Below, piece by piece: positions 3,492 through 44,954 of a stretch of DNA of 45,270 bases. The DNA is from Escherichia phage Ioannina, in the sequence record OQ589852.1. One strand, written 5' to 3'. Under the pieces are notes generated by a model. It was not told where the DNA came from and made no database searches. It saw only the letters and a program-made list of their open reading frames with translations. Made by a program: the position numbers and the translations under genes. Positions within the stretch are counted from its first letter, which is position 1; every line of letters begins with the position of its first letter.

Positions 3492-4578
3492 CCAACGACT
3501 GGCGGATCGCATGATTCGCCGTCACATCTTCACCCAGCGCCTGAGCAATGAGCAGGCGCGTAAAGTGCTGGCAATGTGGCAAAAATTCCGTCCTACGTTA
3601 CTGGGTAAGCTGACCGAATTACTTGAGGGCAAGAAGTCAATGAGCAATAAGGCGCTTACCACTCTGCTAACCCAAATCGACAAAACGGTTAAGACCGAAC
3701 TGCGCGACGAGTTTAAAGTGCTGGCTGAAGGTCTGGCGGAGTTTGCCGATACCGAGGCTGAATATCTGACCGACACATTAACGGCAGCACTGCAACCTGC
3801 GCTTTCAGTCCCTGCCGTTGAGGTGGTTGGTGTAGTGACCGGTGCGCAGATTGCAGCGACGGCTATGAAAAATCCATTCCAGGGCAACACGCTTATGCAA
3901 TGGCCTGATTCTCTGTCAGAATGGACCAGAACGCAGATCAGCAATCAGGTGCGCGCCGGATTTATCCAGGGCAAACCTACTATGCAAATTATTGCGGACG
4001 TCAAGCGCGCGTTGGGCGGTCGTAGCGCGCAGGCCATTTCAAGCGTGGTCAAGTCCGCAGTCAACCACTATGCGGCGACCGCACGCGAATTAATGGTAAA
4101 AGCAAATGATGATATTCTCGACGGTCGCCAGTGGCTTTCTACACTGGATACTCACACCTCAACGCTCTGTCAGTTACGCGATCGCCTGTTTTATCCGGTT
4201 GATGTTACCCCCGAAACAAAAGGGAAACGGGACGGGAAAGTGGTGGCTGGATCACAGTATGGCGCTGGTCCTGGCAAGCTACATTATTGTTGCCGTTCTA
4301 CCGAGACGTGGAAAGTCAAGGGTATGGAAGATTGGCCCAGTGGTAAGCGTCCGGCACTGAAGGCCGAAGCGGGTAAACTGCTAAGTGAGCAGGTCAGTGC
4401 TAAGACGGACTTCTTCTCCTGGGTACAGCGCCAGCCGCGGCATATCCTTGAGGAATTATACGGAGTGCAGCGCGCGGACCAGATCCTGCGAGGCGTGAAA
4501 GTTCCGACCATGTTTAACGACGCGGGCGAGCTTATGACGATTCAACAACCAAAAAATAAGGGGTTATGGCGTGATTAA
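3469..4578 (+). CDS. minor head / head morphogenesis protein (Mu gpF / SPP1 gp7-like)
   Basis: 369 aa following and overlapping the portal gene; start codon uncertain (several in-frame Met). Confidence 0.55.
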   Translation: MTMPRKINQRLADRMIRRHIFTQRLSNEQARKVLAMWQKFRPTLLGKLTELLEGKKSMSNKALTTLLTQIDKTVKTELRDEFKVLAEGLAEFADTEAEYLTDTLTAALQPALSVPAVEVVGVVTGAQIAATAMKNPFQGNTLMQWPDSLSEWTRTQISNQVRAGFIQGKPTMQIIADVKRALGGRSAQAISSVVKSAVNHYAATARELMVKANDDILDGRQWLSTLDTHTSTLCQLRDRLFYPVDVTPETKGKRDGKVVAGSQYGAGPGKLHYCCRSTETWKVKGMEDWPSGKRPALKAEAGKLLSEQVSAKTDFFSWVQRQPRHILEELYGVQRADQILRGVKVPTMFNDAGELMTIQQPKNKGLWRD

Positions 4579-4879
4579 ATACGCAGCAGCCGGATTGATT
4601 CTCGGCCTTGTAATTGGGTTCTGGCAAGGTGACAACTATCGTGCTGGCGTGGTGGCGGAGGCGGCGCAGGAAGCGCAAGCCAAAGCCCAACGGCAGCAAA
4701 CTAAGGTAATCCATGAGTCGGTACAGAAAGAGCAGGCCCGCGAAGTGGAGTTCCGCACAGTTGAGAAAGAGGTGATTAAATATGTCACGCGTCCTGATCG
4801 CGATAATTGTAAGTTTGATGCTGACCGCGTGCGGATCAAGCAACGTGCCGTTGATGCCGCTAACGGAATCAGCAATTAA
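4571..4879 (+). CDS. Rz-like i-spanin
   Basis: N-terminal TM helix (AAAGLILGLVIGFW), Q/A/E-rich coiled coil; an out-of-frame lipoprotein ORF overlaps its 3' half, the classic Rz/Rz1 arrangement. Confidence 0.6.
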   Translation: MIKYAAAGLILGLVIGFWQGDNYRAGVVAEAAQEAQAKAQRQQTKVIHESVQKEQAREVEFRTVEKEVIKYVTRPDRDNCKFDADRVRIKQRAVDAANGISN

Positions 4880-5012
4880 GCCGCCGTGTAAGTTTGAGTC
4901 GCCATCGGAAGATCCGGACGAAGATTTAGCGATTGATGTGCGAAATATGAAATGCGGGGCGGAGTTAAGGGCACAAGTGCTGGATTTGCAGAAATTAATT
5001 AAGGGGCCGTAA
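4782..5012 (+). CDS. Rz1-like o-spanin lipoprotein
   Basis: Signal peptide with lipobox LTAC, Pro-rich mature part with Cys; begins inside Rz in another frame and runs past its stop. Confidence 0.65.
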   Translation: MSRVLIAIIVSLMLTACGSSNVPLMPLTESAIKPPCKFESPSEDPDEDLAIDVRNMKCGAELRAQVLDLQKLIKGP

Positions 5013-5025: not shown

Positions 5026-5787
5026 TTAGCGCGGAATACCGCAGATTTCGTTTAGTGTCTTCACGTCAAGCGCTACTGCCGTTGACTTCTTCTCTTCCTG
5101 CGGGATGAACTGTTTCACTTCAGGCCATGCCTTAATAAGTTTGGTGTCTGTAGTGTACTTATTCAGAGTACCCATAACTGACAATTTAAACTCATCGTAT
5201 TTAGCACGTAAATCGCGGCGCGCCTTGTCGTTCTTATCCAGACGTTTGCAAAATTCATGCTCTGCCGGGTAATCTGCACGACCGCGAGGCTTGTAGATCG
5301 GCACTTGCTCACCTTCCGCGTTAATTTCCACCAGCGCCGTAAGTAGCGCAGTTTCAAACCCAGGTACGATTTCGCCAATGTCCGGGGCCATCGAGTTATT
5401 GTAGCGGTCTTCCCAGTAGCCTCGGTGACAGCGGCTGCTGTAGTTATCACCGCTCAATGACAGTGTGCGGATGTTACCACCCATGTTGACTTCGAACGTT
5501 GCATCGTACACAGCACCAATGCCGTGGGGCATGTCCTTGTTATGGCTGAAGGTTGCACGGCTGGCGTACACGCTTATGCTAAACATGCCGTTATTTGTGT
5601 CTTGATAGCTGCGCATCATTTTCTGCAACCCAACGAAGCTGGTAACACCTTTCGGCATCTGATCCAGAGTGATATCCAGCGCCAGGTCGCGCGATTCGGT
5701 CATTAACTTTTTGGCCTGCTTCGTGATTTCGTGGCCTGCCAGGATGTTAGCCAGGATTTGCTTTTTAATGTCTTTAGTCAGTCTCAT
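5026..5787 (-). CDS. hypothetical protein, early-promoter-driven minus-strand gene inside the structural module
   Basis: About 253 aa from MRLTKDIKK with GAGGAAACAACA RBS; own promoter upstream and own terminator downstream; no recognisable motif. Confidence 0.5.
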   Translation of the reverse strand: MRLTKDIKKQILANILAGHEITKQAKKLMTESRDLALDITLDQMPKGVTSFVGLQKMMRSYQDTNNGMFSISVYASRATFSHNKDMPHGIGAVYDATFEVNMGGNIRTLSLSGDNYSSRCHRGYWEDRYNNSMAPDIGEIVPGFETALLTALVEINAEGEQVPIYKPRGRADYPAEHEFCKRLDKNDKARRDLRAKYDEFKLSVMGTLNKYTTDTKLIKAWPEVKQFIPQEEKKSTAVALDVKTLNEICGIPR

Positions 5788-5810
5788 TGTTGTTTCCTCG
5801 TTTGTTGGTG

Positions 5811-5885
5811 TGCAACCAATATATTGCAACCAATTAGCCAATGCAAGCAAATTTTGTGATTATTTTTATCACTGATAATATTAAG
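5811..5885. promoter_or_regulatory. divergent promoter region with tandem TGCAACCAAT repeats
   Basis: Minus strand reads TTGCAT-N17-TATATT, overlapping two ATTGGTTGCA copies; plus strand has TTGTGA-N16-TAATAT upstream of the scaffold gene. Confidence 0.55.
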
Positions 5886-6738: not shown

Positions 6739-7860
6739 ATGTCTTTAACAGTGTTCCAGCGTAAACTCGTCACCGCGGTTACGCAAATGATCCCCGACAA
6801 CTTGAACGTCTTCAACGCTGCCGCTAACGGCGCGGTCGTTCTCGGTACTGGCGAAGTGCTGAAAGATGTTGTCGAGAAGATGTCTGTAGGTCTGATCGCC
6901 AACCTGGTGTCTGACCGTAACGCATATGCCCCGGTTGGTACTCCTGCCGATGCGAAAGTGCTGGCGCGTATGCTGACCAACTCCGTTAACCTGTCCGCGA
7001 AAGTCGGTCCTGTTGCAATCACCAAAGCTATGATGGCTAAAATCGAAACCAACGTTAACAGCGTTGCGGCTGAGATTGCGGCACAGGCTACTCAAGCTAT
7101 CTTGCTGCACTACCTGAAAGCGGGTATCGGCGCTGGTAAAGCTGCGATCGACTCTAACGATGCGGCGAAATATACCCAACCGGCGCGCGTTGACGGTGTA
7201 GGCGGTCGTACCTTCCCGACCCTGGCAGACTTCCCGCTGGCGGCGGCTAAGTTCGGCGATCAGGCATCTCTGATTAAGTCCTGGTTTATGGACGGTGTGA
7301 CCTGGGCTAACTTCATTGCATATCAGGCGCTGCCTTCTGCTGAGCAGGTGTTCGCGATCGGCGACCTTCAGGTAATGGGTGATGGCTTAGGCCGCCGCTT
7401 TATTATCTCCGATGCCGCTGCCGATGCAATGGGCGCTGGCAAAATGCTGGGTCTTGTTCCGGGCGCGGTAGCAGTTACTACCAACGGTCTGGATATGCTG
7501 GCGCAGGAGCGTGGTGGTAACGAGAACATCGAGCGCTGGTGGCAGGGTGAGTTTGACTTTAACGTCGCTGTTAAAGGCTATCGCATGACCGCGGCAGCAC
7601 GCGCAGGCGTTGAAGGCGTCCGTTCCTTCAAACTGGCTGATATTACCAATACCAGTAACTGGGAACTGGATCAGGGCCAGGTCGATAACGCGCCGTACAC
7701 TACCTACGACGTTGGCGGCACGGATACTGAAGAGGGATCTACCACTTCACTGAAAGAGAAAGGTCGTCGTCGTAAGCAGGACGCGCAGGCCGTACCGACC
7801 CGCCACATCAAGGAAACTGCCGGTGTGTTGGTAACTCTGACGGCAACCACCGCATCTTAA
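6739..7860 (+). CDS. major capsid protein
   Basis: 373 aa, Ala/Gly/Val-rich; follows scaffold; strong terminator hairpin after the stop. Confidence 0.8.
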   Translation: MSLTVFQRKLVTAVTQMIPDNLNVFNAAANGAVVLGTGEVLKDVVEKMSVGLIANLVSDRNAYAPVGTPADAKVLARMLTNSVNLSAKVGPVAITKAMMAKIETNVNSVAAEIAAQATQAILLHYLKAGIGAGKAAIDSNDAAKYTQPARVDGVGGRTFPTLADFPLAAAKFGDQASLIKSWFMDGVTWANFIAYQALPSAEQVFAIGDLQVMGDGLGRRFIISDAAADAMGAGKMLGLVPGAVAVTTNGLDMLAQERGGNENIERWWQGEFDFNVAVKGYRMTAAARAGVEGVRSFKLADITNTSNWELDQGQVDNAPYTTYDVGGTDTEEGSTTSLKEKGRRRKQDAQAVPTRHIKETAGVLVTLTATTAS

Positions 7861-9959: not shown

Positions 9960-10685
9960 ATGGGTTATCAACTTCCTAACGGGTCCAGCGTCCAAATCGG
10001 GTCCGTACAGGGTGCAGGCATCGCAGTTACGGCAGCGTCGAACGCGGCGGCATCTATCAGCGACCTGACTCAAGGTTGCGTAATCACCTGCGCCGCTTCA
10101 CATGGTCTGGCGGTTGGCGACGTGGTTATGTTCACGAAATCCCCGTGGGTCCGTGCGCTTAACCAGGCTTTCATCGTGGGTAAAGTAGACACCAACGACG
10201 TGACGCTGGCGCGCTTCGACACGTCTGATACGACTAAGTATCCGAACGGTGCGTTCCAGGCAGGCACACCGGGTGAGGTCGTGAAGATTTCGAGCTTTAT
10301 CGACTTCCCGTTTATCACCAACGTTGCCGTGTCCGGTGGCGACCAGCAGACGACGACCTTCCAGCCGTTGCAGGTGAATACCGCGATCAGTCTGAACACC
10401 ACGAAAAACCCGTTGGTACAGACCTATACCTTCACCCACGACGAAGAAGACCCGATCCGTCCGATTCTGGAAGACCTGGACGACACGCAGAAGACAACGG
10501 TAATTAAGTTCACTAACCCGGCAGCGTCCAGCGGTAAAGGTGAAATCCGTATCTATGCGGCTAAGGTGTCCTTCCAGAAGATTCCGTCTGCGGAAGTAAA
10601 CAACGTCGAAACGGTACAATCCACTCTGACCATGCAGTCGGAAATGATGATTTACCGCAAAGACCTTGTTGAAGCCTTATCCTGA
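9960..10685 (+). CDS. major tail (tube) protein
   Basis: 241 aa, Ser/Thr/Val-rich beta-type composition; followed by attenuator hairpin and the G/GT chaperone pair. Confidence 0.65.
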   Translation: MGYQLPNGSSVQIGSVQGAGIAVTAASNAAASISDLTQGCVITCAASHGLAVGDVVMFTKSPWVRALNQAFIVGKVDTNDVTLARFDTSDTTKYPNGAFQAGTPGEVVKISSFIDFPFITNVAVSGGDQQTTTFQPLQVNTAISLNTTKNPLVQTYTFTHDEEDPIRPILEDLDDTQKTTVIKFTNPAASSGKGEIRIYAAKVSFQKIPSAEVNNVETVQSTLTMQSEMMIYRKDLVEALS

Positions 10686-42235: not shown

Positions 42236-42538
42236 ATGGAAGTTTTCCACAAATTAGATGAATGGGTAATTATCGCCGCTGCCGGGGTGGCGGGTGGCTT
42301 CGTAGGTGCGCGTATGCACCCGGAAGCTGCACAAGGACCGGTAAACTTTGTGCTGTTCGTCGTCGTTGGCTTCCTGTGTGCGGTATTCGGCGCACCAGCC
42401 ATCGCCGAACTGACCGGATTGACCAGTCAGCGCATGATCGCAGGTCTTGGATTCGTAACGGCAATCTTCTGGATGCCGATTGCGGCACGGATCCGAGAGC
42501 TAATCGCTAATGCCCGCTTTCCGGGAGGTGCCAAATGA
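42236..42538 (+). CDS. holin-like membrane protein
   Basis: 100 aa, three predicted TM segments, charged C-terminus; directly upstream of the lysozyme gene. Confidence 0.5.
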   Translation: MEVFHKLDEWVIIAAAGVAGGFVGARMHPEAAQGPVNFVLFVVVGFLCAVFGAPAIAELTGLTSQRMIAGLGFVTAIFWMPIAARIRELIANARFPGGAK

Positions 42539-42801: not shown

Positions 42802-43276
42802 TGAGAATGGTTTGCGGTTTACTGCCGCATGGGAGACGTTTAGCCCGGTGCCCTACTTCGCCACGAAGAAAGAGCAGGAGCAAGGTCTTTATACCTGGGG
42901 CTTCGGTCATACGGGCACTAACCCGCCGCGCAGCATTACCCGCACTGAGGCAATGGAACTACTGCGCAAGGATATTGCCATTGCTGAGAAGTTTGTTCAG
43001 CGCGCAATGCCGATCGGGGCGTTCAACCAGGCCCAGTACGACGCGCTTGTGGATCTGGTCTTCAACGTAGGGCCGCGTGCCATCGGGGCTAATACCGGAA
43101 CTGGTCGTGCAGTTCGTGCCGGTGATATTCAGACGATCCGTGCTAAACTGCCTCAATTCCGTATGCAAGCCGGGGTTGTTGTCAAGGGTCTGGTGCGTCG
43201 CGCTAACGGACGCCTGGCACTGTTCGACGGTAAGCAGTGGGACGTTGCCGAGCGTATCGGTCGTAATTCAGCTTAA
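42791..43276 (+). CDS. endolysin (T4-type lysozyme, GH24-like)
   Basis: N-terminal ENGLRFTAAWE…YTWGFGHTG follows the T4 lysozyme E…D…T pattern. Confidence 0.75.
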   Translation: MQFSENGLRFTAAWETFSPVPYFATKKEQEQGLYTWGFGHTGTNPPRSITRTEAMELLRKDIAIAEKFVQRAMPIGAFNQAQYDALVDLVFNVGPRAIGANTGTGRAVRAGDIQTIRAKLPQFRMQAGVVVKGLVRRANGRLALFDGKQWDVAERIGRNSA

Positions 43277-43285
43277 GGGGGAGAT

Positions 43286-43693
43286 ATGTTAAAAAGTATT
43301 CTTGATCATAATGCGGACGCGCTTGACGCGTTGGCTAAAACGGACGACGCTGGCGCGCGTCGCATCATTGCAAACACCATCAGCCATGCTGGGGTGTTTG
43401 GTGCAAGCCTTCCGGGGCCTAAGCCGGATGTGAAGGTGTCAAGCGCCACAGTAACGGTAACACCAGAGGAAGTTACAATCGGCACCAAGTCTAAGGCTAC
43501 GGTGGCGGTGCAACCGGCAGGGGCGACCGATAAATCCGGTGTGTGGATTAGTGGGTCGCCAACCATCGCCACCGTTGACGCTTCGGGTAATATCGACGGC
43601 AAAACTCCCGGTTCTGTCGATATTATTTGGGTGGCTAAGGATGGAAGCGGGGTGTCGGGCCGAAAAACGGTAACTGTGGCAAACGCCGAGTAA
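43286..43693 (+). CDS. bacterial Ig-like (Big_2-type) domain protein
   Basis: C-terminal 80 aa (ATVAVQPAGATDKSGVWISGSPTIATVDASGNIDGKTPGSVDIIWVAKDGSGVSGRKTVTV) is a typical Big_2 fold; no signal peptide. Confidence 0.55.
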   Translation: MLKSILDHNADALDALAKTDDAGARRIIANTISHAGVFGASLPGPKPDVKVSSATVTVTPEEVTIGTKSKATVAVQPAGATDKSGVWISGSPTIATVDASGNIDGKTPGSVDIIWVAKDGSGVSGRKTVTVANAE

Positions 43694-43697
43694 AGAG

Positions 43698-43728
43698 CAA
43701 GCCCGCAACTATGGCGGGCTTTTTATTG
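43698..43728 (+). terminator. rho-independent terminator
   Basis: AGCCCGC-AACTATG-GCGGGCT followed by TTTTTATT. Confidence 0.65.
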
Positions 43729-43780
43729 CTTGACTTGCAACCAATTAATAGCTCATACTTCTGTCGCCGTGGTATATTGA
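43728..43780 (+). promoter_or_regulatory. promoter region (TTGACT plus TGCAACCAAT; downstream TATATT)
   Basis: TTGACTTGCAACCAATTAATAGCTCATACT and a TATATT hexamer upstream of the ATG at 43812; exact -10 unresolved. Confidence 0.4.
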
Positions 43781-43811
43781 TCGCGGTCAAACTGAATCAG
43801 GAAAATATACG

Positions 43812-44954
43812 ATGCACCCTCAAACCAAAATTACAGACGAGCAGTTGATCGCCGAAATCCAGGCGGGAACGACCGCGAAAGATATTGCTAAGAAATACGG
43901 GATTGCACTGCGCAATGTTTATATGCGCAAAGCACGCTTATCTAAAAAGGGGATTGGGCACGGTAACGATGCCGTAATTCGTAAGCGGGTTGCCGATGGC
44001 TTCGGCGTGAAACGTGTATCCGCCCTGGTACGAGGCAATGGCGAAGAGGTCATGTCGTGGGTTATCACCGAGCAGGACAAAGAGCGCCAGCTTGAGGCGA
44101 TGCGTGCAGTGCTGGACGGCATGAACAGCGAAATCACACCGGCAGCACCCGTAAGCGCGCCACCAGTCCCGATCCAGGCGCTGGACCTGCTAAACCTGTA
44201 CACCGTGTCCGACTTCCACCTGGGGATGCTGGCATGGGGAGAAGAGACTGGCGAGGATTGGGATATGGCTATTGCCGAAGACCTGTTCTACCGCTGGTTT
44301 GTCGAAGCCTTTGCCCGCGCCCCGGATGCCGGAACAGGCGTGATTAACATCCTCGGTGATATGGCCCACTTTGACAGCCTGGATGCCGTTACCCCCGCAA
44401 GTGGTCACGTCCTGGATGCCGATACCCGCTATCAGAAGCTGGTGCGCTACATGATTCGCATGGTCCGCCGCGTTGTCGAACTGGCATTGCAGAAACACCA
44501 CAAGGTTAAACTGCTAATCGTGCAGGGCAACCATGACGAAAGCGGTATGATCTGGCTGGCGGAGATGTTCGCTACGCTGTACGAGAACGAGCCGCGCGTT
44601 GAGGTGGATACGTCGCCGGATGTCTATAAGATGGTCCAGCACGGTAAGACTACGCTGTTCTTCCATCACGGGCACAAGGCTAAATTCGACGCTATCGAGC
44701 CGGTCATGATTTCGAAATTTCGTGAGGCGTTCGGATCCAGCCAGTACAGCTATGCTCACGTAGGACACCTGCACCACCAGAAGATTATCGAATCGCGCAA
44801 CATGATTGTTGAACAGCACCGCACGCTTGCCGCGAAGGATGCCTACGCCAGCCGAGGCGGTTGGATGAGCGGACGCAGTGCAAACGTGATAACCTATAGC
44901 GCGAACTACGGTGAAGTAGCACGCTTAACCATTAGCCCGGAGATGTTGAAATGA
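43812..44954 (+). CDS. HTH domain fused to calcineurin-like metallophosphoesterase
   Basis: N-terminal HTH (TAKDIAKKYGIALRNVYMRKARL); metallophosphatase motifs GDMAHFD, GNHDE and HHGH. Confidence 0.55.
   Translation: MHPQTKITDEQLIAEIQAGTTAKDIAKKYGIALRNVYMRKARLSKKGIGHGNDAVIRKRVADGFGVKRVSALVRGNGEEVMSWVITEQDKERQLEAMRAVLDGMNSEITPAAPVSAPPVPIQALDLLNLYTVSDFHLGMLAWGEETGEDWDMAIAEDLFYRWFVEAFARAPDAGTGVINILGDMAHFDSLDAVTPASGHVLDADTRYQKLVRYMIRMVRRVVELALQKHHKVKLLIVQGNHDESGMIWLAEMFATLYENEPRVEVDTSPDVYKMVQHGKTTLFFHHGHKAKFDAIEPVMISKFREAFGSSQYSYAHVGHLHHQKIIESRNMIVEQHRTLAAKDAYASRGGWMSGRSANVITYSANYGEVARLTISPEMLK

What the first reader, a model, noticed from the sequence alone, without database searches (positions are those of the whole stretch)
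43286..43693. Ig-like (Big_2) protein in the slot normally held by spanins after the lysozyme gene
A 135-aa protein with a clear Big_2-type C-terminal domain and no signal peptide follows the endolysin. Ig-like domains in phages usually decorate capsids or tails, so this may be a virion-associated protein encoded outside the structural cluster.
Basis: partly seen in the sequence, partly recalled or inferred. Interest (0 to 1): 0.4.

Follow-up and report, generated by a model that had tools for sequence, protein, structure and literature searches.

The report
Capsid decoration protein carrying Ig-like domain
The small gene after the lysozyme gene of this E. coli phage most likely encodes a head-decoration protein: a short anchor, already seen bound to the capsid in a solved structure of a sister phage, joined to an immunoglobulin-like domain that would stick out from the head. 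This is a familiar kind of phage accessory protein in an unusual genomic position.

Summary
ORF 43286-43693 (+, 135 aa) is real. It has a ribosome-binding site, is followed directly by a terminator, carries a Pfam Big_2 domain (E=6e-11), and has no signal peptide. The window is Escherichia phage Ioannina, a Dhillonvirus.

The "spanin slot" framing is misleading. The phage has an ordinary i-spanin/o-spanin pair at 4571-5012, inside the head-gene cluster.

The decisive result is that residues 1-49 match PDB 9zys chain H, "Decoration protein gp64" (55 aa, E=7.6e-18). That chain was deposited with seven chains of a major capsid protein about 91% identical to the window's. The N-terminal two-helix module is therefore a Dhillonvirus capsid anchor.

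- **Distribution:** the anchor is found in about 146 phage records plus the diverged HK578 clade. About 25% of records also carry the C-terminal Big_2 domain behind a proline-rich linker.
- **Selection:** both modules are under purifying selection (ω about 0.05-0.25), and they recombine independently of each other.
- **Expression:** the EE09 orthologue was detected in virion pellets and was abundant late in infection.

The Big_2 ligand is unknown; glycan adhesion is argued only by analogy with T1 gp48, T5 pb10 and T4 Hoc. This is a new member of a known kind, of modest interest.

The parts
43286..43693 (+). Gene for the 135-aa decoration protein with an Ig-like domain. It is 100% identical to the protein GenBank names 'Ig-like domain protein [Escherichia phage Ioannina]'.
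   Evidence: ORF list. P0006 is 100% identical and lies on a 45270-bp contig. Orthologues sit at the same position in Kenya-K19, StarDew, HK578, PTXU06 and EE09.
43286..43399 (+). N-terminal capsid-anchor module, residues 1-38, predicted as two helices (2-18 and 22-34) ending in the invariant G36-V37-F38 motif.
   Evidence: PDB 9zys_H 'Decoration protein gp64', E=7.6e-18 over residues 1-49. phrog_11068, E=2.7e-25. AF2 helices. dN/dS 0.05-0.1. Invariant residues from alignment A2.
43400..43441 (+). Proline-rich flexible linker, residues 39-52 (GASLPGPKPDVKVS). This is where the long and short forms diverge and where recombination separates the two modules.
   Evidence: Block mean pLDDT 57-66 across residues 31-50, and no secondary structure predicted for residues 35-52. 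Long/short DNA alignment. Discordant dS/dN on the two sides of the linker.
43442..43681 (+). C-terminal Big_2 immunoglobulin-like beta-sandwich, residues 53-132, inferred to project from the capsid surface.
   Evidence: Pfam PF02368, E=6.2e-11. AF2 pLDDT about 90 with eight strands. Foldseek top hits are the Ig-like domains of T5 pb6 and lambda gpV, and Big_2-CBM56. dN/dS 0.12-0.25.
43275..43283 (+). Shine-Dalgarno-like sequence AAGGGGGAG upstream of the ATG.
   Evidence: Direct reading of the sequence.
43699..43728 (+). Intrinsic terminator (8-bp GC-rich stem plus TTTTATT). It closes the four-gene late unit holin-holin-endolysin-decoration gene and is conserved in all relatives examined.
   Evidence: Terminator scan. 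Conserved hairpin in the DNA alignment.
6739..7860 (+). Major capsid protein, the inferred binding partner of the N-terminal module.
   Evidence: PDB 9zys_A 'Major capsid protein gp09', E=2.3e-210, about 91% identity by my count of the printed alignment, seven chains in the same entry as gp64.

Best explanation
The gene encodes an auxiliary capsid decoration protein built from two modules. Residues 1-38 form a two-helix anchor that docks on the outside of the T=7 HK97-fold capsid, as modelled for the 55-aa homologue gp64 in PDB 9zys. Residues 39-52 form a proline-rich spacer. Residues 53-132 form a Big_2 Ig-like beta-sandwich that is therefore displayed on the head surface. PDB 9zys holds two anchor chains per seven capsid-protein chains. 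If those seven chains are one icosahedral asymmetric unit, that implies roughly 120 copies per head; this copy number is my inference. The gene is transcribed late, as the last gene of the holin-holin-endolysin unit, so the protein is made in the cytoplasm when filled heads are present, and it needs no signal peptide. The anchor is a core gene of the genus. The Ig domain is an optional, exchangeable cargo. It most likely gives weak multivalent adhesion to surface glycans (host LPS or capsule, or mucus), by analogy with T1 gp48, T5 pb10 and T4 Hoc. Shown here: the domain architecture, homology to a solved capsid-bound protein, conservation of the capsid partner, purifying selection, and expression of an orthologue. 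Inferred: that the long form binds in the same way, the copy number, and the ligand and benefit of the Ig domain.
For: - Residues 1-49 match 9zys_H 'Decoration protein gp64', E=7.6e-18.
- The window's capsid protein matches 9zys_A at E=2.3e-210, about 91% identity. Portal and tail-tube chains that follow the same gp numbering (gp03, gp15) and are highly similar to the window's proteins are also in the PDB.
- The short (55-aa) and long (135-aa) forms share the N-module and differ by a clean domain-sized indel between the linker and the terminator.
- The N-module is present in 146 phage records, all Dhillonvirus-type by organism name and genome size; 39 records have the Big_2 form.
- dN/dS is 0.05-0.1 for the anchor and 0.12-0.25 for Big_2.
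- AF2 predicts two helices, a low-confidence linker, and a confident beta-sandwich. Foldseek places the sandwich with the externally displayed Ig-like domains of T5 pb6 and lambda gpV and the BIG2 domain of the phi29 capsid protein.
- The Big_2 part matches T1 cement protein gp48 (9kzj_H, E=1e-5). In T1 the C-terminal BIG2 is a flexible outward protrusion (PMC11945409).
- EE09 CDS40, the orthologue, was found in virion pellets with 28% coverage and was one of only four phage proteins detected in cells at 25 min (PMC10673088).
Against: - The solved homologue is the short form, so no structure or purified-virion proteomics exists for a Big_2-bearing form.
- I could not find a paper for 9zys. Capsid binding therefore rests on the depositors' chain name and on the co-deposited capsid-protein chains.
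- EE09 virions were only pelleted, not gradient-purified, and endolysin, terminase and phosphoesterase were also detected, so that detection does not prove attachment.
- About 75% of Dhillonvirus records lack the Ig domain, and SECphi18 carries a nonsense codon at the conserved Trp. The domain is therefore dispensable, and its benefit is undemonstrated.
- No ligand is known.
Confidence: 0.8

Rival explanations
1. The protein is a lysis accessory: a soluble partner of the endolysin or holins. It could be a targeting subunit that binds the cell envelope, or a substitute for or helper of the spanins. It would act at lysis and not be part of the virion.
For: The gene is the last one in the holin-holin-endolysin transcription unit, bounded by terminators. 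A precedent for stand-alone binding domains in siphophage lysis cassettes has been proposed for Drexlerviridae SH3 proteins (PMC13164509). EE09 endolysin and CDS40 were recovered in the same crude pellet.
Against: A complete i-spanin/o-spanin pair is present elsewhere (4571-5012; phrog_2536 E=7.5e-31, phrog_5672 E=1.9e-22). The protein has no transmembrane segment or lipobox. Its conserved module matches a chain modelled on a capsid. The Ig domain is absent from most relatives although they keep the same lysis genes.
Confidence: 0.07
2. The protein is a tail protein or tail decoration, as several GenBank records annotate it ('major tail protein'), with the Ig domain displayed along the tail tube as in lambda gpV or T5 pb6.
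For: PHROG hits to major-tail-protein families (phrog_341, 41, 885), and PDB and Foldseek hits to the Ig-like domains of gpV and pb6. The window's own tail tube protein has no Ig domain, so a protein supplied in trans is conceivable.
Against: All those hits cover only the Big_2 domain, not a tube-forming domain. The true tube protein is 9960-10685 (PF08813, E=1.4e-32). The gp64 sequence occurs in only one PDB entry, the capsid entry 9zys, whereas the tail protein gp15 chains are in other entries (10lj, 10xw, 23gd).
Confidence: 0.05
3. The Big_2 extension is a functionally neutral or decaying passenger. Only the 45-aa anchor matters, as a capsid cement, and the Ig domain contributes nothing in this phage.
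For: Presence is patchy (39 of about 155 records). SECphi18 has a nonsense codon. Truncated or frameshifted variants occur in metagenome assemblies (P0001, P0004, P0033, P0034, P0036).
Against: Where the Big_2 codons are intact they evolve under purifying selection: window versus Kenya-K19 gives dS 0.52 and dN/dS 0.15. Three divergent Big_2 lineages (about 42-57% amino-acid identity to the window protein) all keep the fold-defining residues. The domain is exchanged as an intact unit between anchor types.
Confidence: 0.08

Closest known systems
Dhillonvirus 'Decoration protein gp64' (PDB 9zys chain H, 55 aa; phrog_11068)
   Same: The N-terminal module is homologous (E=7.6e-18; about 76% identity over 49 residues by my count of the alignment). 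The gene sits in the same place after the endolysin. The capsid-protein partner is about 91% identical.
   Different: gp64 ends in a short proline-rich/acidic tail. The window protein instead continues into an 85-residue Big_2 domain.
Phage T1 cement protein gp48 (PDB 9kzj chain H; PMC11945409)
   Same: It has a capsid-bound N-terminal part, a poly-proline linker and a C-terminal BIG2 domain homologous to this one (E=1.1e-5). The BIG2 part is a flexible outward protrusion proposed to aid adsorption.
   Different: The gp48 anchor is a 150-residue beta-tulip that joins gp49 in heterotrimers at quasi-threefold axes. Here the anchor is a 38-residue helical hairpin with no detectable similarity to it. 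gp48 is encoded in the head module.
T5 pb10 and T4 Hoc (Ig-like head decoration proteins)
   Same: From my own knowledge, they share the logic of a small capsid-binding domain plus one or more displayed Ig-like domains. They are non-essential and have been proposed as adhesins (for example Hoc and mucus).
   Different: No pb10 or T4 Hoc chain appeared among the PDB sequence hits at E up to 1; only a 'Hoc-like protein ORF90' hit at E=0.003 on the Ig domain. Their anchors and binding sites differ, and they are encoded among structural genes.
C-terminal Big_2 domains of siphophage tail tube proteins (lambda gpV, T5 pb6)
   Same: These are the closest structural matches to the Ig domain (Foldseek E about 1e-7 to 1e-5, rmsd 1.4-3.2 Å). 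They are likewise dispensable, surface-exposed accessory domains.
   Different: They are fused to a tube-forming domain and decorate the tail, not the head.

Membership tests
Pfam Big_2 (PF02368) bacterial Ig-like domain, group 2 | Profile score above the curated gathering threshold | tested here: met
   42.5 bits against a 22.8-bit cut-off, E=6.2e-11, residues 55-122.
Pfam Big_2 (PF02368) bacterial Ig-like domain, group 2 | Ig-like beta-sandwich fold | tested here: met
   AF2 predicts eight strands at pLDDT about 90. Foldseek probability is 1.00 to the Ig-like domains of pb6 and gpV, Big_2-CBM56 and intimin.
Dhillonvirus gp64-type capsid decoration protein (PDB 9zys_H / phrog_11068) | Sequence homology of the anchor module | tested here: met
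   E=7.6e-18 to 9zys_H over residues 1-49. phrog_11068 E=2.7e-25, covering 1-49 of a 55-position profile.
Dhillonvirus gp64-type capsid decoration protein (PDB 9zys_H / phrog_11068) | Conserved genomic position: the last gene of the lysis unit, followed by a terminator | tested here: met
   Same position in EP23, HK578, PTXU06, NHEP3, SM_S24 and EE09. The terminator is conserved.
Dhillonvirus gp64-type capsid decoration protein (PDB 9zys_H / phrog_11068) | Cognate capsid protein present and conserved | tested here: met
   The window capsid protein matches 9zys_A at E=2.3e-210, about 91% identity.
Dhillonvirus gp64-type capsid decoration protein (PDB 9zys_H / phrog_11068) | Physical attachment of this protein to the mature capsid | not testable with these tools
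   There is only indirect support: the EE09 orthologue was detected in a crude virion pellet that also held non-structural proteins (PMC10673088).
Spanins (i-spanin / o-spanin / u-spanin) | N-terminal transmembrane segment (i-spanin) or lipoprotein signal with a lipobox Cys (o- and u-spanin) | tested here: not met
   The N-terminus is MLKSILDHNADALDALAKTDD, hydrophilic and without any Cys. The genuine spanins are 4571-4879 (transmembrane segment; phrog_2536 E=7.5e-31) and 4782-5012 (LTAC lipobox; phrog_5672 E=1.9e-22).
Siphophage major tail (tube) protein, as annotated in several GenBank records | Tube-forming domain (Pfam Phage_tail_3 or equivalent) | tested here: not met
   Only the Ig domain aligns to tail-protein families. 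The Phage_tail_3 domain is in ORF 9960-10685 (E=1.4e-32).
Hoc / pb10-type Ig-like head decoration proteins | Homology of the capsid-binding domain, and binding at hexamer centres | tested here: inconclusive
   No pb10 or T4 Hoc chain appeared in the PDB sequence search; there was only a Hoc-like Ig-domain hit at E=0.003. The binding site on the capsid cannot be read with these tools. The resemblance is in how it works, not in family membership.

The most novel reading that the evidence does not exclude
Dhillonviruses may carry a natural 'plug-and-display' system: a minimal anchor of about 40 residues that docks on the finished head, plus a recombination-prone proline linker. Behind the linker a cargo domain (three divergent Big_2 lineages, or nothing) would be swapped in and out between otherwise near-identical phages, tuning adhesion to host or gut surface glycans. 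The gene's placement in the lysis operon, with the spanins placed in the head operon, would then reflect a deliberate late-expression design and not an accident. If so, the anchor would be one of the smallest natural phage-display scaffolds, and the long/short polymorphism would be a tractable natural experiment on what capsid Ig domains are for.
Probability: 0.3. Interest if true: 0.5.

Novelty: new member of a known kind. Interest (0 to 1): 0.3.

Why it matters
The result corrects a recurrent mis-annotation. GenBank records variously call this gene "major tail protein", "putative lysozyme" or "hypothetical protein". It also explains why a lysis cassette ends with an Ig-domain gene.

The result links a very recently solved 55-aa capsid decoration protein to a longer natural variant that would display an Ig-like domain on the head. 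The genus contains closely related phages with and without the domain, including the BASEL phages Bas16 and Bas17 (with) and Bas18 and Bas84 (without). It therefore offers a clean system to test what capsid-displayed Ig domains do for adsorption, mucus adherence or persistence. The tiny anchor could also be useful for phage display.

None of this overturns current understanding.

Tried and rejected
**Literature**
- I could not find a paper for PDB 9zys. Searches on gp64/decoration/cryo-EM, Dhillonvirus plus decoration, Dhillonvirus plus cryo-EM, gp numbers and PDB codes found only unrelated work (Sf11, LptDE-RBP, tail-spike modelling).
- The Tmn paper (PMC11846954) lists a "CDS67 major tail protein Pro53fs" mutation in an escape phage. 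I first took this as evidence that Big_2 is dispensable. On checking, Pro53 fits the last residues of the 55-aa short form (...ESGP53AA), so I do not use it.

**Searches that added little**
- The word-indexed homologue search with the N-module alone returned only five proteins.
- The exhaustive profile search returned only 13 representatives, all Dhillonvirus-like. No fusion of the anchor to any cargo other than Big_2 was found.
- The Foldseek PDB library stops at 2026-04-08 and does not contain 9zys, so I could not make a structural comparison of the anchor.

**Hypotheses tested and rejected**
- The Big_2 domain is not a copy of one in the phage's own tail tube protein. The tube protein has none, and an HMM of this Big_2 subfamily finds nothing else in the six-frame translation.
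- The diverged HK578 anchor is not matched by a diverged capsid protein: the HK578 capsid protein is 98.6% identical to that of Bas84.

**Not attempted or dismissed**
- I decided against predicting an anchor-capsid complex with a linker fusion. Too few paired sequences were available, and decoration sites usually span several subunits.
- I attach no meaning to the weak internal hairpin at 43380-43392. The scan found about as many such sites in shuffled sequence.

Full report
**Identity of the window.** The window is essentially a complete Dhillonvirus genome. It is 99.5% identical over the tested 3.3 kb to "Dhillonvirus LM40P1". The protein under study is 100% identical to "Ig-like domain protein [Escherichia phage Ioannina]", which lies on a 45,270-bp contig, the same length as the window.

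**The observation.**
- ORF 43286-43693 (+) starts with ATG and encodes 135 aa.
- A purine-rich ribosome-binding sequence, AAGGGGGAG, lies at 43275-43283 and overlaps the endolysin stop codon.
- A GC-rich hairpin at 43699-43721 followed by a T-run sits six bases after the stop codon.
- Pfam Big_2 matches residues 55-122 with E=6.2e-11, at 42.5 bits against a 22.8-bit threshold.
- The three genes upstream are two holins (phrog_2359, phrog_2508) and a Phage_lysozyme endolysin.
- The N-terminus is hydrophilic and has no signal peptide or lipobox.

**The spanin question.** The title implies that this gene occupies the spanins' place. The phage does have spanins, but they are in the head-gene cluster.
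- ORF 4571-4879 has an N-terminal transmembrane segment and matches phrog_2536 "Rz-like spanin" (E=7.5e-31).
- The overlapping ORF 4782-5012 has a lipoprotein signal with lipobox LTAC and matches phrog_5672 (E=1.9e-22).
- The same arrangement is annotated in Bas84 and HK578.

Nothing is missing from the lysis machinery, and the protein has none of the features that define a spanin.

**Two modules.**
- PHROGs splits the protein. Residues 1-49 match phrog_11068, a 55-position family of unknown function (E=2.7e-25). Residues from about 32 to 135 match Ig-domain structural and tail families.
- In most relatives the gene after the endolysin encodes only the first module. EP23, NHEP3, SM_S24 and Bas84 have proteins of 53-55 aa that end in a proline-rich/acidic tail.
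- Kenya-K19, StarDew, PTXU06, HK578 and EE09 have forms of 133-137 aa with Big_2.
- A DNA alignment shows a clean domain-sized presence/absence between the proline-rich linker and the conserved terminator.

**What the N-terminal module is.** Searching PDB sequences gave the decisive hit.
- Residues 1-49 match chain H of entry 9zys, "Decoration protein gp64", which is 55 aa (E=7.6e-18).
- The same entry holds seven chains of "Major capsid protein gp09". These match the window's capsid protein (6739-7860) at E=2.3e-210, about 91% identity by my count of the printed alignment.
- Portal (10ec, "gp03") and tail (10lj, 10xw, 23gd, "gp15") chains with the same gp numbering, each highly similar to the window's proteins, are also deposited.

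The short form of this gene has thus been modelled on a Dhillonvirus capsid. The entry holds two gp64 chains per seven capsid chains. If those are one icosahedral asymmetric unit, that implies about 120 copies per T=7 head; this copy number is my inference. I could not find the associated paper. The Foldseek PDB library ends on 2026-04-08 and lacks the entry, so the structure appears to be very recent.

**Structure prediction.** AlphaFold2 on a 24-sequence alignment gave mean pLDDT 83. It predicts helices at 2-18 and 22-34, an unstructured stretch at 35-52, and an eight-stranded sandwich at 53-132 with pLDDT about 90. Confidence is lowest over residues 31-50, where the 10-residue block means are 57 and 66. 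Foldseek places the sandwich with the following:
- the externally displayed Ig-like domains of T5 pb6, the DT57C tube protein and lambda gpV;
- the BIG2 domain of the phi29 capsid protein;
- Big_2-CBM56 and intimin.

**Evolution.**
- The N-module is found by tblastn in 146 phage records. By organism name and genome size these are all Dhillonvirus-type. The HK578 clade carries a strongly diverged version that keeps 14 invariant residues: M1, L2, S4, I5, L6, L16, A24, R25, I27, A29, G36, V37, F38 and P43.
- An exhaustive profile search of 1.84 billion representatives found only 13 hits. All are Dhillonvirus-like, either short or with Big_2. The anchor is a genus-restricted core gene.
- The Big_2 form occurs in 39 of about 155 records, in three sequence lineages that are about 87-100%, 56% and 42% identical to the window protein.
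- Nei-Gojobori estimates give dN/dS of 0.05-0.1 for the anchor and 0.12-0.25 for Big_2. For example, window versus Kenya-K19 gives dS 0.52 and ω 0.15 for Big_2. The Ig domain is therefore maintained by selection wherever it is present.
- The two modules have discordant histories. StarDew versus PTXU06 gives anchor dS 0.23 but Big_2 dS 2.5. HK578 versus PTXU06 gives anchor dN 0.8 but Big_2 dN 0.23. This indicates recombination at the linker.
- The diverged HK578 anchor does not go with a diverged capsid: the HK578 capsid protein is 98.6% identical to that of Bas84.
- The domain is dispensable. SECphi18 has a stop codon at the conserved Trp, and truncated variants occur in metagenome assemblies. 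The other long forms I checked are intact.

**Expression and virion association in a relative.** In phage EE09, CDS40 (137 aa) lies between the lysin (CDS41) and the phosphoesterase (CDS39), so it is the orthologue (58.5% identity). It was detected by LC-MS/MS in ultracentrifuged virions, with three peptides and 28% coverage. It was also one of only four phage proteins seen in infected cells at 25 min (PMC10673088). The pellet also contained endolysin, terminase and phosphoesterase. This result therefore shows abundant late expression and is compatible with virion attachment, but does not prove it.

**Mechanism.** I conclude, with about 0.8 confidence, that the gene encodes a capsid decoration protein. 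The helical hairpin docks on the expanded head, and the Big_2 domain is held out on a flexible proline-rich spacer. Expression from the late lysis unit suits a protein that binds finished heads in the cytoplasm.

The role of the Ig domain is inferred by analogy only. Phage T1 cement protein gp48 has a homologous C-terminal BIG2 (E=1e-5) that forms a weak, flexible outward protrusion, and the authors propose that it assists adsorption (PMC11945409). From my own knowledge, T5 pb10 and T4 Hoc are non-essential Ig-bearing head proteins implicated in surface or mucus adhesion. Ig-like proteins of gut phages were recently reported to mediate epithelial adherence when displayed on the scaffold phage K1F (PMC13370021).

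**Rivals.**
- **Lysis accessory.** Supported only by gene position and by the proposed Drexlerviridae stand-alone SH3 precedent (PMC13164509). It is contradicted by the capsid-bound homologue and by the complete spanin pair elsewhere.
- **Tail protein.** This is how several GenBank records annotate the gene. It rests only on the shared Ig domain. The true tube protein is 9960-10685 (PF08813, E=1.4e-32), and the gp64 sequence occurs in only one PDB entry, the capsid entry.
- **Neutral passenger.** Contradicted by purifying selection on the Big_2 codons.

**Novelty.** GenBank already labels this protein as Ig-like, and RefSeq calls the HK578 orthologue a "structural protein with Ig domain". The anchor has a solved structure. 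What this analysis adds is:
- the link between the two forms;
- the census of long and short forms across the genus;
- the evidence for selection on, and modular exchange of, the two parts;
- the correction of the spanin framing and of the tail-protein and lysozyme annotations.

It is a new member of a known kind (Ig-bearing head decoration proteins), with an unusually small anchor and an unusual gene position. Interest is modest.

Noticed in passing
window 4571-5012 (+): The i-spanin (4571-4879) and the overlapping o-spanin (4782-5012, lipobox LTAC) lie between the head-morphogenesis gene and the scaffold/capsid genes, about 38 kb from the holin-endolysin cassette. The decoration gene, in turn, sits in the lysis cassette, so the two appear to have traded places. 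The layout is conserved in Bas84 and HK578.
   Followed up: partly
window 5026-5850 (-): An Nmad5 (nucleotide-modification-associated domain 5) gene, PF18757 E=5.9e-43, lies on the opposite strand inside the head module. PMC11846954 implicates the Dhillonvirus Nmad5 as the trigger sensed by the Tmn defence system.
   Followed up: no
L004 (Bas84, PQ850611.1) 42342-42524: The GenBank CDS Bas84_0065 is called in the wrong frame. The conserved decoration-protein ORF (MLKSILDH...ESGPAA, 55 aa) is read in another frame and starts about 25 nt upstream. Elsewhere the same gene is annotated 'major tail protein' (ZCEC10, BEK2-2, Gluttony, JLBYU37) or 'putative lysozyme' (StarDew).
   Followed up: partly
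L007 (SECphi18, NC_073071.1) 1501-1914: The Big_2 form is split into two annotated CDSs by an in-frame stop at the conserved Trp codon of the Ig domain. This laboratory-used phage therefore probably makes only the anchor plus half a domain.
   Followed up: partly
window 43694-43811, compared with L002 (EP23) 1866-2102: The intergenic region after the terminator is 118 nt here, and similarly short in Kenya-K19, StarDew and SECphi18. It is about 237 nt in EP23, HK578, PTXU06 and SM_S24, where it holds an extra 26-codon ORF for a hydrophobic peptide (MARKDIWVLAIWTTTAFIDMVICELI). This ORF is absent from the window and its function is unknown.
   Followed up: no
window 43730-43780 (+): Two conserved promoter-like elements lie directly after the terminator and ahead of the phosphoesterase/exonuclease gene (43812-44954): TTGACT-18-CATACT, and a TGGTATATT extended -10-like motif. 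Both are conserved in relatives, which suggests a separate, probably early, transcription unit at the genome's right end.
   Followed up: no
window 7630-7790 (major capsid protein residues about 298-350): The only variable stretch of an otherwise over 95% conserved capsid protein. It has clustered substitutions and a 7-residue insertion relative to HK578 and 9zys_A (…TTYDVGGTDTEEGSTTSLKEKGRRRKQ…). I did not examine whether this surface patch relates to decoration-protein binding.
   Followed up: no
P0004 and P0001 (metagenome-derived variants): These are natural variants of the Ioannina-type and K19-type gene. P0004 matches the window protein through …SHAG and then continues in what looks like a shifted reading frame of the window DNA, consistent with a deletion of about 35 nt (my reading of the sequences, not run through a tool). 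P0001 ends early at 70 aa. Both lack most of the Big_2 domain, which suggests it is lost repeatedly in the wild, although assembly error is not excluded.
   Followed up: partly
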